Shown piece by piece: positions 157 through 42,343 of a DNA stretch of 64,000 nt. Numbering within the stretch: position 1 is the first letter of the stretch; every line of letters begins with the position of its first letter. Location of the stretch: positions 10,292,001 through 10,356,000 of the forward strand of contig OX597835.1 of the NCBI GenBank assembly GCA_951406725.2, written 5' to 3'. The stretch is from Octopus vulgaris (taxonomy: Eukaryota). The translations under genes were made by a program, and so were the position numbers. The notes under the pieces are model-generated. The model worked only from the letters and a program-made list of their open reading frames with translations. It was not told the origin of the DNA and did not search any database.

Positions 157-223
157 CTTGGAACTGCATGTTGCGCATCTCTTGCTCTTTCCGTTGCAAT
201 TCTGCTGCTTTTCTTTCCAGTTC
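157..223 (-). CDS. SCAMP: SCAMP internal coding exon: ELERKAAELQRKEQEMRNMQFQ(+1 nt)
   Basis: ttttaacag|GAA...CAAG|gtagaa. 67 nt, phase 0/1. Continues RRQE-ELERKAAEL, the conserved SCAMP coiled coil that precedes the NNWPP motif. The gene continues beyond position 1. Confidence 0.95.
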
Positions 224-5394: not shown

Positions 5395-5900
5395 CTCTAA
5401 ACTCTGAGTTCAAATCCTATCAGAGCCAATTTCACCATTTGTTTCTTGGGGACTGATAAACTAATAAGCACAAATTGGACTGGACTGTATTGACTCTACT
5501 ACTACAAATATCTTCTTTCCTACTCTAGGTACAAGGTCAGAAATTTTGGGGGAGGGAGCCAGTCTATTAGATCGACTCCAGTACATAACTAGTACTTAAT
5601 TTATTGACCCCGAAAGGAAGAAAGGCAATGTAATCGACTTAATCCCTTCCTCCAAATTTGAGGCCTTGTGCTTCCAGGAGCAAGGATTATTATTATTATT
5701 ATTATTATTATTAAGTCAGTGAATGGCAAGGTTGCAAAATTATTAGCACAGTTGAGAAAATGTATTTCTTGCAATTCATTACATTCTAAGTTCAAATCCC
5801 ACTGGGGTTGAATTTGTCTTTCATCCTTTCAGGGACATTAAATTAAGTACCAGTTGAGCATTGAGGTCAATGTAATCCACTAATCCCTTCCCCTCAAAAA
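5395..5900. mobile_element. Cluster of decayed family B SINE fragments in both orientations
   Basis: Repeated ctgagttcaaat, ctttcatcctttc and aggccttgtgc motifs with (att)n tails. Confidence 0.65.
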
Positions 5901-6119: not shown

Positions 6120-6320
6120 AGTTAACTTTTTAAGGATGTAGGCAATATCCATGAGAAAAATTTCTTTGTTTAGTTCTGGTGCCTTGGTATTTCTTGATAT
6201 TTGACCATAGTGTTTAAGAGTACCTTTTGGTATTGTCCCCAAAGCTCTGATGATTACAGGTAGAGTTGTTCTTACATAACACATTTTTGAGATTTCTATT
6301 TCAAGGTCTTTATATTTAAT
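6120..6320 (-). pseudogene. Non-LTR retrotransposon remnant, restriction-like endonuclease C-terminus (R4/Dong-like)
   Basis: KYKDLEIEISKM...LPVIIRALGTIPK...IAYILKKL resembles the KYxDLxxEI...PVVIGALG...TAxILRK pattern of RLE-bearing LINEs. Confidence 0.6.
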
Positions 6321-6376
6321 TACAGAGGTGTACTTGCATAGCAAGTGATTTGATCTGAGATCGTGTGCTGAAATGA

Positions 6377-6598
6377 AAACAATTCCAGCGTGGAAGGTGT
6401 TTGTAAGCCATTTAAGCAACACACAAAAAACCGTTCAATTCACTTCAACATTTAAGTTTAATTTGTCAAAATATTTTCGGCGCTTTAAGACCGCGACCTG
6501 TTCACTGACAAAAATTAAACTTAAATGTTGAAGTGAATCGAACGGCTTTTGTGTGTTTCTTAAATGGCTTACAAACACCTTCCACGCTGCAATTGTTT
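6377..6598. repeat. Long foldback: ~92-bp inverted arms, 37-nt loop
   Basis: 6377-6468 is the near-perfect reverse complement of 6506-6598. Confidence 0.95.
6463..6511 (-). ncRNA. Candidate minimal type I hammerhead ribozyme (G3-C8 core variant)
   Basis: Minus strand: UUGUCA-GUGAACA-GGUCGC-ggucuuaaa-GCGCC-GAA-AAUAUU-U-UGACAA. This gives helix I, core, helix II, GAAA, palindromic helix III and an NUH triplet. Confidence 0.6.
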
Positions 6599-6946
6599 AT
6601 ATTTAATTTTTCAAATACTTTTACAGAAGTGTTGTACTCTACATGGACTGATACATCTGTCAGCAGAAATGCTTTTGTCAACGTGAGTTTTTACCACAAT
6701 ATCTGGTCAATTGGCTTGTGTAGTGTGACCAGCTGTGGTTGTTAATAATAACAACAATAGTAATCCTTTCTATTATAGGCACAACACCTGAAGTTTTTTT
6801 TTTTGGGGGGGGGATAGTCAATTACATTGACCCCGAAAGGATGAAAGGCAAACCTCAGCGGAATTTGAACTCAGAACATGAAGATGGATAAAAAGCCCCT
6901 AAGCACTTTGCCAAGTGTGATAATGATGCTGCCAGCTTGCCACCTC

Positions 6947-7205
6947 ATCATCATCATTTAACGTCCGCTTTCCATGCTGGCATGGGTTGGACGGTTCAAC
7001 TGGGGTCTGGGAAGCCAGAAGGCTGCACCAGGTCCAGTCTGATCTGGCAGTGTTTCTACAGCTGGATGCTTCCTAACACCAACCACTCCGTGAGTGTAGT
7101 GGGTGCTTTTTATGTGCCACCCGCACAGGTGCCTGAAGAGGCTGGCAGACGGCCACGATCGAATGGTGCCAGCCTCATCTGGCACCTGTGCCGGTGGCAC
7201 ATAAA
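6947..7205 (-). mobile_element. Retroposon family D
   Basis: catcatcatcatttaacgtccgctttccatgctggcatgggttggacgg... homologous to the other D copies. Confidence 0.85.
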
Positions 7206-7360
7206 AATAATAATAATAATAATGTTGTGGGACTTTAACATTCCGACTGACAGAGTAATAGAAGCTAGAAGGCCTGATTTAGTAGTAGTAGTAGTAGATA
7301 AAGAGAATACAGTGTCAAATAATGAGAGAATCAATATGAGGTGTATAGATAAAAAAAAGG
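7205..7360 (+). pseudogene. RLE-type non-LTR retrotransposon remnant
   Basis: MLWDFNIPTDRVIEARRPDLVVV..DKEN matches the LWDFxIxTD...RPDxVxxDK (PD..D) nuclease motif. Confidence 0.65.
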
Positions 7361-9615: not shown

Positions 9616-10596
9616 TATGGGTAATTAATTTTGTTCACTCTCAAAGGATTGAAAGTAAAGTTGGCTCTAGCAGAATTTGATTTTAGAACACAAAAAAGCC
9701 ATCTAAATACTACAAGTAATCCAGTCCTACACCACCACAACAATAATACCTGGCTTCTCACCAGGTATTTTAGATAATCTTTCCTAATTTACAATGAGCA
9801 ATTGACTGGCTCTAATCTAATCCATTAATTATTTTCTTTGTGTTTCTCTATATTGCTAATGGAAAAAAAATAAATAAATAAATAAACAACTATAATTGGT
9901 ATACGAGAACTCATGTTACACTGAATTGCCATCACAGTTGTTAGCTTGGGACTAAGTTTATTGGCCTGACAAGTCATAACCTGGACTACAGACACCCCCA
10001 AATCTGTTGCTGTTCAAACTTTGAATACAAGAACATGTATTGAAATAGCAAACAACAACAACAACAACAATTATATTGAAACAACAAAAACAAAGGAAAT
10101 TATATTTTTGAAAATTATAAATATAACAAAACAGTGAATTTTTTGCGGCTGAATAGACCAATAACAATCCCTACCCCATCCCCACACACACATGGGAAAT
10201 ACAAAGGATATGTAGCATTTATCAAGCAACAGGGTAATCATTAAAGTTTCTACTTCCTTCAGTGTCATAAAAGACCAGGTGAGTCCATTGCATTTCTTAC
10301 TTCAGGCAATTGACACCTGGCTAAATGTACAGGTAACTCTTTTGGTTAACAACCCATATGAAACCACCCCTGGTTTTATGATGCAAACTTCTTTCTTTGA
10401 AGTGGCTTAAATTAAAACCTTCCATAAAAATCTCTCACGTCAATTTGTTTCAAACACCTGTTTTAATCACGACAAGTATTTTATTTCCATTCTTTGTCGT
10501 TTCCTAAATTAAGTGAAACTAGGGCAGTGTATTTCAGCGGAAAAACTGTAACGAACAGGATTAGGGGATTCAACTATAAATCAAAACTGAATCACA

Positions 10597-10795
10597 GACT
10601 CAACTTACTCGGAGGCTCGACTTGCTCAGAAGCTCGACTTGCTCAGAAGCTCGACTTGCTCAGAAGCTCGACTTGCTCAGAAGCTCGACTTGCTCAGAAG
10701 CTCGACTTGCTCAGAGGCTCGACCTACTCAGAGGCTCGACCTACTCAGAGGCTCGACCTACTCAGAGGCTCAACTCACTCAGAGGCTCAACTCAG
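10597..10795. repeat. 17-bp minisatellite, ~11-12 units
   Basis: gctcgacttgctcagaa/g x6, then gctcgacctactcagag x3, with degenerate units at both ends. Confidence 0.95.
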
Positions 10796-11523
10796 TGACA
10801 ACTTACCACCATTCCATAGTGGTCACTCCCATATATTTCATTAATTTTTTTAATTATTTAGTCCGAGAAGAAAGAGCAGCACTCTTACTCCTTGCAGTGA
10901 GGTGCAGCTTGACGCCATTGTGAAGAAATGTACCTAGACTGCAGCAGTCCTGGGTACAAAGAATAGAGCTAACAAATGCGATTAAGGCCCAGCAGCAGGA
11001 AAAACAAGGAAGTAAATTAAGTTTTCATTGGTGAAGGTGATACAGAGTTCTCGGAAACTGTTGTAGTAGCAGTAGACAAGAAAGAAGGAGTGTACATTAT
11101 GTTGGTGACCATGTGGCTGCACATAAATGGCTCTGGTGTCAGGCTTGACGATGAGCATTCCAGTGTCCAGTCAACAAAATAATTTGCCATTTCAAAAACA
11201 ATGTAATTCTCACACGGAATCAGCATTCGTCAAGGTTTGTAACAAAAATGGCCATCACAATTACAGTTACACTCCATCCAACAGATTTCCACACAATTTC
11301 TATTCAATTTCGGGTCAACCCAACAAAATCATAAGAGACAACCAAGCCTGCACCTACTGGTCATACTATTTCTTAGAACAGGGGTCCTCAGCCACTGAAC
11401 TGGACATGACTGGATATCAAACCAGATGGAAACAAGAGATTTTTAAAATTTCATTTCTATTCTACAGACTATTGCAGTCTGTTGGGTGTTTTTGCATTAT
11501 ATATGAATTATGTATGTTATATA

Positions 11524-12006: not shown

Positions 12007-12159
12007 CTCTTGTCTACGCTGTAGGTCACTAGTATCAATTTTCTGTGCCCCAACAGCTGAGTATGGCGGGGCTTCCTCAGATGGGGTCATAATGGCCGGC
12101 TGTGATGCTGGTGGCTGTGAGGGTTGAGGAGCAGGAATGGTTGGCCGGGTAGCTGGAAC
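12007..12159 (-). CDS. SCAMP: SCAMP internal coding exon: VPATRPTIPAPQPSQPPASQPAIMTPSEEAPPYSAVGAQKIDTSDLQRRQE
   Basis: cctttcag|GTT...GAG|gtgagt. 153 nt, phase 0/0. The QPAIMxPxEExPxY and LxRRQE motifs are typical of SCAMP1-3. Confidence 0.95.
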
Positions 12160-41188: not shown

Positions 41189-41352
41189 ATAATTCTTCAT
41201 GACAACGCAAAGAAGAACTGGCAAATTTGGAAAGTAGAAAAAACCAAAAAACCAAGTATGAGGAGTGAAAGGCATTTGTTTGACAGCAAACGGAAACCAG
41301 ACAGTGAAACACAGCAGCAAATGGCCCTGATGAGAATGGGCTTTGGTAGATA

Positions 41353-42343
41353 GGCGGCGAGCTGGCAGAATCGTTAGCACGTCGGGCGAAATGCTTAGCG
41401 GTATTTCGGCTGCTGTTACGCTGTGAGTTCAAATTCCGCCGAGGTCGACTTTGCCTTTCGTCCTTCCGGGGTCGATAAATTAAGTACCAGTTAAGCACTG
41501 GGGTCGATGTTAAGCACTGGGGTCGATGTAATCGACTTAATACCTATGTCTGTCCTTGTTTGTCCCCTCTGTGTTTAGCCCCTTGTGGGTAATAAAGAAA
41601 TAGGTATTTCATCTGCCGTTACGTTGTGAGTTCAAATTCCGCCGAGGTCGACTTTGCCTTTCGTCCTTCCGGGGTTGATAAATTAAGTACCAGTTAAGCA
41701 CTGGGGTCGATATAATCGACTTAATACCTATGTCTGTCCTTGTTTGTCCCCTCTGTGTTTAGCCCTTGTGGGTAATAAAGAAATAGGTATTTCATCTGCC
41801 GTTACGTTGTGAGTTCAAATTCCGCCGAGGTCGACTTTGCCTTTCGTCCTTCCGGGGTCGATAAATTAAGTACCGGTTAAGCACTGGGGTCGATGTAATC
41901 GACTTAATACCTATGTCTGTCCTTGTTTGTCCCCTCTGTGTTTAGCCCCTTGTGGGTAATAAAGAAATAGGTATTTCATCTGCCGTTACGTTGTGAGTTC
42001 AAATTCCGCCGAGGTCGACTTTGCCTTTCGTCCTTTCGGGGTCGATAAATTAAGTACCAGTTAAGCACCGGGGTCGATGTAATCGACTTAATACCTATGT
42101 CTGTCCTTGTTTGTCCCCTCTGTGTTTAGCCCCTTGTGGGTAGTAAAGAAATAGGTATTTCATCTGCCGTTACGTTGTGAGTTCAAATTCCGCCGAGGTC
42201 GACTTTGCCTTTCGTCCTTCCGGGGTCGATAAATTAAGTACCGGTTAAGCACTGGGGTCGATGTAATCGACTTAATACCTATGTCTGTCCATGTTTGTCC
42301 CCTCTATGTTTAGCCCCTTGTGGGTAATAAAGAAATAGGTATT
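41353..42343 (+). mobile_element. Family B SINE pentamer: one head plus tandem 183-184-bp units
   Basis: Units restart at ggtatttc at 41603, 41786, 41970 and 42154, each after aaagaaata. Confidence 0.95.

What the first reader, a model, noticed from the sequence alone, without database searches (positions are those of the whole stretch)
6377..6598. Intact-looking minimal hammerhead ribozyme with G3-C8 swapped core at the tip of a 90-bp hairpin, sense to the SCAMP pre-mRNA
Seen: minus 6511->6463 reads UUGUCA GUGAACA GGUCGC ggucuuaaa GCGCC GAA AAUAUU U UGACAA. Every type I hammerhead element is in register: helix I (extended to ~92 bp by the foldback arms), core, helix II with one bulge, GAAA, helix III and an NUH triplet (UUU). 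Established: core positions 3 and 8 form a tertiary Watson-Crick pair, so GUGAACA is the compensatory swap of CUGANGA and a standard motif search would miss it. Penelope-like elements carry minimal hammerheads whose helix III is a short palindrome thought to work through dimerisation, and AAUAUU is such a palindrome. Inference: a non-autonomous PLE-derived or retrozyme-like foldback unit that could cut the host intron in dimer or trans, and whose long stem is also a likely ADAR or Dicer substrate. UUU is a weak triplet and activity is unproven.
Basis: partly seen in the sequence, partly recalled or inferred. Interest (0 to 1): 0.8.

Follow-up and report, generated by a model that had tools for sequence, protein, structure and literature searches.

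The report
Swapped-core hammerhead in octopus Penelope retroelement
This hairpin in an octopus gene's intron is one of thousands of short, decaying copies of a jumping gene's end, and it carries a small predicted self-cutting RNA (a hammerhead) in which two paired core letters are naturally swapped; the RNA is likely slow, and cutting has not been shown.

Summary
The motif is there as described (minus strand, 6512-6462; predicted cut 6469/6468), sense within an 11.8-kb SCAMP intron. It is the minimal type I hammerhead of an endonuclease-bearing Penelope-like retroelement (PLE) of Octopus vulgaris. A full-length element has the same G3-C8 core in both 1118-bp pseudo-LTRs, and an 18-mer spanning the core occurs 6174 times. 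The swap is compensatory: related PLEs carry C3-G8 or U3-A8 at the same place, with covarying helices. The 90-bp stem is not part of the ribozyme. It is the usual inverted PLE copy, flanked by a 13-bp target duplication. In 18 of 18 sampled head-to-head insertions the two arms end at two different internal reverse-transcription start sites. 81 of 82 arms stop within 29 nt upstream of the core, and only 4 near the cut site, so the templates were likely uncleaved. U17 is ordinary for PLE hammerheads. Cutting of the host intron is unsupported. I found no natural G3-C8 hammerhead in the papers I could read (Lunse 2017 was unavailable). This scan noted G3-C8 cores earlier in phages and in other PLEs. 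Verdict: new variant of a known kind; activity untested.

The parts
6462..6512 (-). Minimal type I hammerhead: helix I 6512-6506/6468-6462, core GUGAACA 6505-6499 (G3-C8), extra G 6498, helix II 6497-6479, GAAA 6478-6475, palindromic helix III 6475-6470, U17 6469; predicted cut between 6469 and 6468
   Evidence: covariation with relatives
6320..6512 (-). Sense arm: end of the PLE pseudo-LTR (hammerhead, 5' UTR, ORF start codon at 6411, first 30 codons), about 90% identical to the full-length elements
6320..6379 (-). PLE 'tail': the 60 nt between the two insertion end points (+124 and +184 from G3), present on this arm only
   Evidence: PMC8557442, PMC11167929
6513..6598 (+). Inverted, truncated second arm ending at the +124 site; it makes the roughly 90-bp stem and joins the sense arm within the helix I sequence
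6309..6321 (+). Left copy of a 13-bp AT-rich target-site duplication (overlaps the element end by 2 nt)
6596..6608 (+). Right copy of the target-site duplication (overlaps the arm end by 3 nt)
12007..12159 (-). SCAMP exon upstream of the host intron
157..223 (-). SCAMP exon downstream of the host intron (intron 12006-224, about 11.8 kb)

Best explanation
The motif is the pseudo-LTR hammerhead of an Octopus vulgaris Penelope-like retroelement family, with a natural G3-C8 core pair, sitting in a short inverted insertion in a SCAMP intron; it is predicted to cleave slowly after U17, likely only as a dimer or with the element's protein, and this intronic copy is likely inert. Shown by sequence: the full-length element (RT plus C-terminal GIY-YIG) has this hammerhead in both pseudo-LTRs, 92 nt upstream of the start codon; short copies end at two fixed points (+124, +184), and inverted copies pair one of each. 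Inferred: the element's RNA begins about 22 nt upstream of the core; the protein nicks both strands of AT-rich DNA about 12 bp apart; each nick primes reverse transcription at a different internal site and runs toward the RNA 5' end; the two cDNAs are joined head to head, giving a hairpin with a target duplication. Inferred: selection on the ribozyme acts in source elements (RNA processing), not in scattered copies, and short copies come from uncleaved RNA.
For: Full-length element: L092 has two 1118-bp repeats 98.4% alike, each with the GUGAACA hammerhead, around the ORF; L145 has a 1025-aa open frame. The protein has YSRYVDD, CX3CxxC and VYQIKC..YIGET motifs; its atlas neighbours at 0.94-0.97 carry RVT_1, HTH_animal and GIY-YIG. 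Copy number: 6174 exact core 18-mers and 10,936 downstream 21-mers, reversed-pattern controls 0. Covariation: a sister family at 57% amino-acid identity has C3-G8 with compensatory changes in helices I, II and III. 4 of 19 metagenome relatives with downstream sequence have a hammerhead 103-136 nt after the ORF match, two C3-G8 and two U3-A8; null mean 0.01, 0 of 100 resamples reached 4. In the 9-row alignment the 3-8 pair is Watson-Crick in 9 of 9 rows (G-C 3, C-G 4, U-A 2; six lineages); covariation score 0.64 against 0.21 shuffled and at most 0.21 slid. Within the family, variants at 8% or more of 64 copies fall in loop II and flanks, plus one helix II CpG position, and none in the core. Architecture: 18 of 18 head-to-head pairs combine a +124 and a +184 end (P about 3e-6); 81 of 82 arms start at -29 or later, 35 at -29..-15, 4 at +31..+42; a TA-repeat flank in 29 of 40 and a 9-14-bp duplication in 10 of the other 11. 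Literature: in the anole PLE, C3G/G8C partly restores cleavage, the ribozyme needs the protein, cleavage is not needed for insertion, both strands are primed, and two internal start sites define the tail (PMC11167929).
Against: No cleavage data. No pile-up of copy ends at the predicted cut (4 of 82), so there is no genomic trace of cleavage. A G3.G8 variant that cannot pair has 222 exact copies and was 4 of 24 ORF-linked copies in the tree, so a broken core can be propagated or arises repeatedly. 15 of 19 metagenome relatives showed no hammerhead with my descriptors, several with under 350 nt downstream. The family A and B hammerheads match by position and structure, but their DNA does not align there. 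The direct Pfam scan of the ORF found no RT or GIY-YIG. The AAUAUU dimer helix is very weak (-0.2 kcal/mol). The covariation shuffle ignores relatedness, and 5 of the 9 rows come from two families.
Confidence: 0.85

Rival explanations
1. The hammerhead is homologous but vestigial in this family: after the swap it no longer cleaves usefully, and the sequence is kept as 5' UTR or protein-binding structure, or simply by descent from a few source elements.
For: Copies derive from uncleaved RNA. G3.G8 copies exist. Cleavage is dispensable for insertion in vitro (PMC11167929). The sister family has C at position 9.
Against: G3-C8 dominates in every loop II subfamily sampled, including an old one (about 87 of the first 100 listed have C8), across ORF divergence of 10-20%. 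All other core positions are kept while loop II changes. A double compensatory change is hard to get without selection for the pair (inference).
Confidence: 0.25
2. One reading: an autonomous foldback or retrozyme-like unit whose ribozyme cuts the SCAMP pre-mRNA in dimer or trans, with a functional long stem.
For: The core is intact and sense to SCAMP. In this copy the core lies free in the loop and helix II is predicted at about 0.74. Thousands of potential partners exist. Head-to-tail arrays of 166-192-nt hammerhead units exist on C28.
Against: Junctions vary from copy to copy, and 16 of 24 inverted arms cover the core. Arm ends are explained by integration. The copy is single, about 5% diverged, with a mismatch in the source's helix II register. 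Single min-HHRs showed no cleavage in vitro (PMC4209133).
Confidence: 0.08
3. A MITE-like DNA foldback element or microRNA hairpin whose loop resembles a hammerhead by chance.
For: Long inverted repeat, target duplication and high copy number; sub-threshold Rfam miRNA hits.
Against: The sequence is the pseudo-LTR and ORF start of an RT-GIY-YIG element. The arms are unequal and 16 of 40 copies have no inverted arm. Relatives keep the hammerhead fold with covariation. The miRNA hits lie far below gathering scores.
Confidence: 0.02

Closest known systems
Minimal type I hammerheads of metazoan Penelope-like elements (Cervera and de la Pena 2014, PMC4209133; read: parts 1-2 of 4 of the text and parts 1-2 of 3 of supplement file 2)
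   Same: [quoted passage not shown]
   Different: The core pair is G3-C8. Of the 56 listed motifs 53 are C3-G8, two U3-A8, one U3.G8 and none G3-C8. The extra nucleotide is G, where their consensus has H.
PAc (Poseidon, Anolis carolinensis) hammerhead and tail mechanism (Frangieh et al. 2024, PMC11167929; read: parts 1-2 of 4)
   Same: Hammerhead at the pseudo-LTR/ORF junction; two internal RT start sites bounding the tail; AT-rich targets; both strands primed; uncleaved RNA as template.
   Different: C3G/G8C was an engineered rescue there and is the wild type here. The tail is 60 nt, not 30-40. The hammerhead lies wholly upstream of the start codon. The element has a CX3CxxC linker, which Poseidon lacks.
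Neptune/Nematis-type EN+ PLEs (Craig et al. 2021, PMC8557442; read: passages)
   Same: RT plus C-terminal GIY-YIG, CX2-5CxxC linker, pseudo-LTRs, inverted 5' copies, one-sided tail, (TA)n targets.
   Different: The clade was not placed by phylogeny here. The paper's octopus passage concerns Naiads, not this family.
Natural hammerhead core variants (Perreault et al. 2011, PMC3088659; read: passages)
   Same: Natural covariation of the 3-8 pair.
   Different: The passages report U3-A8 as the natural covariation; I saw no G3-C8 there (Figure 5 itself is not held).
Non-LTR retrozymes (bioRxiv 10.64898/2026.07.22.740005; read: part 1 of 5)
   Same: PLE-derived, type I hammerhead, non-coding; the C28 arrays of this family fit the tandem layout.
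   Different: The window copy is a single inverted insertion, not a tandem array.

Membership tests
Type I hammerhead ribozyme | Core U4 G5 A6 A9, G12 A13 A14, A15.1-U16.1 | tested here: met
Type I hammerhead ribozyme | Watson-Crick pair between positions 3 and 8 | tested here: met
   G3-C8 here; C-G and U-A in relatives, 9 of 9 rows paired
Type I hammerhead ribozyme | Literal CUGANGA consensus or Rfam hammerhead model | tested here: not met
   GUGAACA; no hammerhead family at E<=10
Type I hammerhead ribozyme | Helices I and II around the core, NUH triplet | tested here: met
   7-bp helix I; helix II 5 bp in the source, shifted register in this copy; UUU
Type I hammerhead ribozyme | Self-cleavage 3' of position 17 | not testable with these tools
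   No assay; copy ends show no pile-up at the site (4 of 82)
PLE minimal hammerhead | Present in both pseudo-LTRs of an RT-EN element | tested here: met
   L092
PLE minimal hammerhead | Extra nucleotide after position 9, G10.1-C11.1, palindromic helix III | tested here: met
   Source element; G10.1-C11.1 in 9 of 9 rows; the extra base is G rather than H
PLE minimal hammerhead | Activity as a dimer or with protein | not testable with these tools
   Only a duplex energy of -0.2 kcal/mol
EN+ Penelope-like element (Neptune/Nematis type) | Single ORF with RT and C-terminal GIY-YIG | tested here: met
   Motifs, atlas neighbours, homolog names; the direct Pfam scan was blank
EN+ Penelope-like element (Neptune/Nematis type) | CX2-5CxxC linker before the endonuclease | tested here: met
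   CX3CxxC; definition from PMC8557442
EN+ Penelope-like element (Neptune/Nematis type) | Pseudo-LTRs, inverted truncated copy, one-sided tail, (TA)n targets | tested here: met
EN+ Penelope-like element (Neptune/Nematis type) | Clade placement by RT phylogeny against reference elements | not tested
Non-LTR retrozyme | Head-to-tail tandem units, each with a hammerhead | tested here: not met
   Single copy in the window; arrays exist elsewhere in the genome
Non-LTR retrozyme | Circular RNA intermediate | not testable with these tools
   Only contigs were available
MITE / DNA foldback element | Fixed, equal terminal inverted repeats from a DNA transposon | tested here: not met
   Unequal arms, variable junctions, retroelement source

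The most novel reading that the evidence does not exclude
The G3-C8/U17 core is a deliberately slowed, protein-gated hammerhead kept by selection in an active octopus retroelement. Its internal-priming mechanism has scattered more than 6000 copies through the genome, so sense copies in introns such as this SCAMP one become cleavable when the element's protein or RNA is expressed: a retroelement-switched cut in host pre-mRNAs.
Probability: 0.1. Interest if true: 0.8.

Novelty: new variant of a known kind. Interest (0 to 1): 0.5.

Why it matters
A natural G3-C8 core fixed in a young, high-copy animal retroelement shows that an engineered rescue mutant is viable in nature. Standard CUGANGA searches, and claims that some PLEs lack hammerheads, will miss such families. 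Close relatives use three different 3-8 pairs, a ready natural series for kinetic comparison. The copies also give in-genome support for the mechanism seen in vitro for the anole PLE. The 18-of-18 pairing of the two end points suggests that each target strand primes at its own internal start site, which would explain PLE inverted repeats and tails. The single intronic copy itself is probably unimportant.

Tried and rejected
Stop codon equals core UGA: an early idea from L039, rejected when full-length copies showed L039 to be an internal deletion. G3.G8 as a preserved intermediate of the swap: G8 is confined to older backgrounds (0 of 20 with the youngest loop II against 15 of 40 C8 copies, P = 0.001), but it is only 5 of the first 100 listed in an old subfamily, no C3-G8 copy appeared among the first 100 of 175 non-G3 matches, and G8 was not clustered on a 24-copy tree; not shown. 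Splicing at the acceptor-like site 20 nt upstream of the core: no shared upstream exon among 31 junctions, so a transcription start is preferred; not settled. Rfam: no hammerhead, only sub-threshold miRNA hits. Pfam and PDB searches of the ORF gave nothing significant. Expression: no RNA holder listed. Contigs of four runs guessed to be RNA covered the pseudo-LTR end, and one held the array junction, but contigs cannot show ends, strand or editing, so ADAR, Dicer and cleavage remain untested. Rows left out: 22 of 41 metagenome loci were not in the downstream test; an antisense canonical-like hit in L190 was not assigned; one row (L173) was misaligned in the covariation count. Literature on natural G3-C8: searches 'hammerhead + G3-C8', 'positions 3 and 8' (74), 'C3G G8C natural variant' (75), 'octopus + hammerhead ribozyme' (76) and 'GUGANCA/G3C8/NUGANNA' (94) found only engineered swaps. 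Lunse et al. 2017 and Hammann et al. 2012 are not held and could contain such variants; supplement file 1 of PMC4209133 was not searchable.

Full report
OBSERVATION. Parts: helix I 6512-6506 with 6468-6462, core GUGAACA 6505-6499, extra G 6498, helix II 6497-6479, GAAA 6478-6475, palindrome AAUAUU 6475-6470, U17 6469. The 236-nt region folds as one hairpin (z = -23) whose arms are 92.6% alike over 94 nt. A relaxed descriptor allowing any 3-8 pair found only this site in the window. Rfam found no hammerhead. The host gene is SCAMP on the minus strand (PF04144 hits left of the window; exons 12159-12007 and 223-157), so the motif is sense in an 11.8-kb intron.

WHAT IT IS. The hairpin is a dispersed repeat (1001 candidates, 40 scored). 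An 18-mer across the core occurs 6174 times and a downstream 21-mer 10,936 times; reversed controls gave 0. Walking outward through copies led to near full-length elements. L092 has two 1118-bp direct repeats, 98.4% alike, each ending in the same GUGAACA hammerhead, around a long ORF. L145 has a 1025-aa open frame. [quoted passage not shown] Pfam did not call it directly, but its atlas neighbours at 0.94-0.97 carry RVT_1, HTH_animal and GIY-YIG. This is an EN+ Penelope-like element of Neptune/Nematis type as defined in PMC8557442 (passages); I did not place the clade by phylogeny. A 57%-identical homolog named by its source as Octopus vulgaris is 100% identical to a place in this genome, which gives the host. 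The ORF starts 92 nt after G3. The window holds the hammerhead, the 5' UTR and the first 30 codons.

THE SWAP IS COMPENSATORY. The sister family (57% amino-acid identity, many near-identical copies, 1312-aa frame) has a hammerhead at the corresponding place with C3-G8 and changed but paired helices I, II and III. Its DNA does not align with ours there, so the match is by position and structure. Of 41 related metagenome loci, 19 were tested downstream of the ORF. Four carry a hammerhead 103-136 nt after the ORF match, two with C3-G8 and two with U3-A8; resampled sequence gave 0.01 hits on average and never 4. Fifteen had none, several being short. In a 9-row alignment (six lineages, one row misaligned) the 3-8 pair is Watson-Crick in 9 of 9 rows in three types, G10.1-C11.1 is invariant, and 9 of 13 pairs change on both sides; covariation 0.64 against 0.21 (the shuffle ignores relatedness). 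Within the family, among 64 copies found without a core-dependent query, common variants (8% or more) fall in loop II, the flanks and one helix II CpG site, not in the core. G3-C8 also dominates an old subfamily (about 87 of 100 listed have C8). Against this: a non-pairing G3.G8 form has 222 exact copies, all 20 sampled lacking the youngest loop, so an intact core is not strictly required for every copy.

In the source element helix II is a perfect 5 bp after an unpaired G, the layout typical of PLE min-HHRs (PMC4209133). U17 is common: 24 of the 56 motifs in Figure S3 of PMC4209133 (my count), and 3 of the 4 metagenome relatives. None of those 56 has G3-C8. PMC3884650 (passages) reports a G3-C8 variant less active with C17 than with G17, so a non-C base at position 17 suits a G3 core (inference).

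THE HAIRPIN IS AN INTEGRATION SCAR. In the first 40 core-pattern loci along C1, 24 have an inverted arm, with varying junctions, and 16 of those arms would pair over the core. In 82 arms collected by a downstream pattern, all 3' ends fall at about +124 (35) or +184 (47) from G3, and all 18 head-to-head pairs combine one of each (P about 3e-6). 81 of the 82 arms begin at -29 or later although the pseudo-LTR extends about 880 nt further; 35 begin at -29..-15, and only 4 near the predicted cut at +36. Of 18 junctions ending in AG, 13 have a G just before, where the source has T or C; some of these Gs can come from the opposite arm. 29 of 40 insertions touch a TA repeat, and 10 of the other 11 have a 9-14-bp duplication; the window copy has 13 bp. 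PMC11167929 showed in vitro that a PLE protein nicks and extends both strands of AT-rich DNA, starts reverse transcription at two internal sites that bound the tail, uses uncleaved RNA, and assists its hammerhead, in which C3G/G8C partly rescues cleavage. My inference: each nicked strand primes at a different site on an RNA that starts about 22 nt before the core, possibly capped, and the two cDNAs join head to head. Here they joined within the helix I sequence, which left the core in the loop and made helix I look 92 bp long.

FUNCTION. Most likely the ribozyme processes element RNA slowly, as a dimer or with the protein (established for PLE min-HHRs in PMC4209133 and PMC11167929; inferred for this family). 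The window copy is single, about 5% diverged from its nearest relatives, and its dimer helix is marginal, so cutting of SCAMP pre-mRNA is unlikely to matter. I could not test cleavage, editing or dicing.

NOVELTY. PLE hammerheads, inverted copies and tails are known. A natural G3-C8 core did not appear in my searches or in the passages of PMC3088659, which name U3-A8; two key papers were not held. Earlier notes of this scan report G3-C8 cores in phages and in PLEs of other genomes, those with an additional core nucleotide; I did not check them, and nothing was noted for this genome or sequence. What this case adds is a clean seven-letter swapped core fixed in a young animal family of thousands of copies, with relatives that show all three pair types, plus the 18-of-18 end pairing. 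Verdict: new variant of a known kind, interest 0.5.

Noticed in passing
L151:50-103 (+) and L158-L169; L170:2489-2540 (+): The sister PLE family has core CUGAUGC with C at position 9, as does one metagenome relative (UUGAAAC). Three older sister-family copies have C17 where young copies have U17.
   Followed up: partly
G000 C28 loci L039, L052-L059, L061, L062: Head-to-tail arrays of 166-192-nt units, each with the G3-C8 hammerhead and a TA spacer, retrozyme-like; most units in one array have a G.U closing pair in helix II.
   Followed up: partly
L092 about 1195-1222 and 5456-5482; L170 about 2470-2492: A branch-point-like CTAAC, pyrimidine tract and AG lie 20 nt upstream of the core, where short copies begin; a similar acceptor-like site precedes helix I in L170. 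D. virilis Penelope has an intron end at helix I (PMC4209133). Many short copies have an extra G here (possible copied cap).
   Followed up: partly
G000, 222 sites; L126, L127, L131, L134: A G3.G8 non-pairing variant on older subfamily backgrounds, with many copies on C16.
   Followed up: yes
L039:1040-1450 (-), L062: An internally deleted derivative that joins the ORF start directly to the hammerhead, a roughly 400-nt non-autonomous unit beside a tandem array.
   Followed up: partly
window 7103-7211: A second, GC-rich hairpin of about 100 nt inside another dispersed repeat, with sub-threshold Rfam miRNA hits.
   Followed up: no
window 10558-10812: A 17-bp tandem repeat in the same SCAMP intron.
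   Followed up: no
window 41327-42316 and about 15 other places: An abundant SINE-like repeat family, with a 184-bp tandem run at 41.3-42.3 kb.
   Followed up: no
L190 about 900-960: A canonical-core minimal hammerhead on the strand opposite to the ORF match in a metagenome contig.
   Followed up: no
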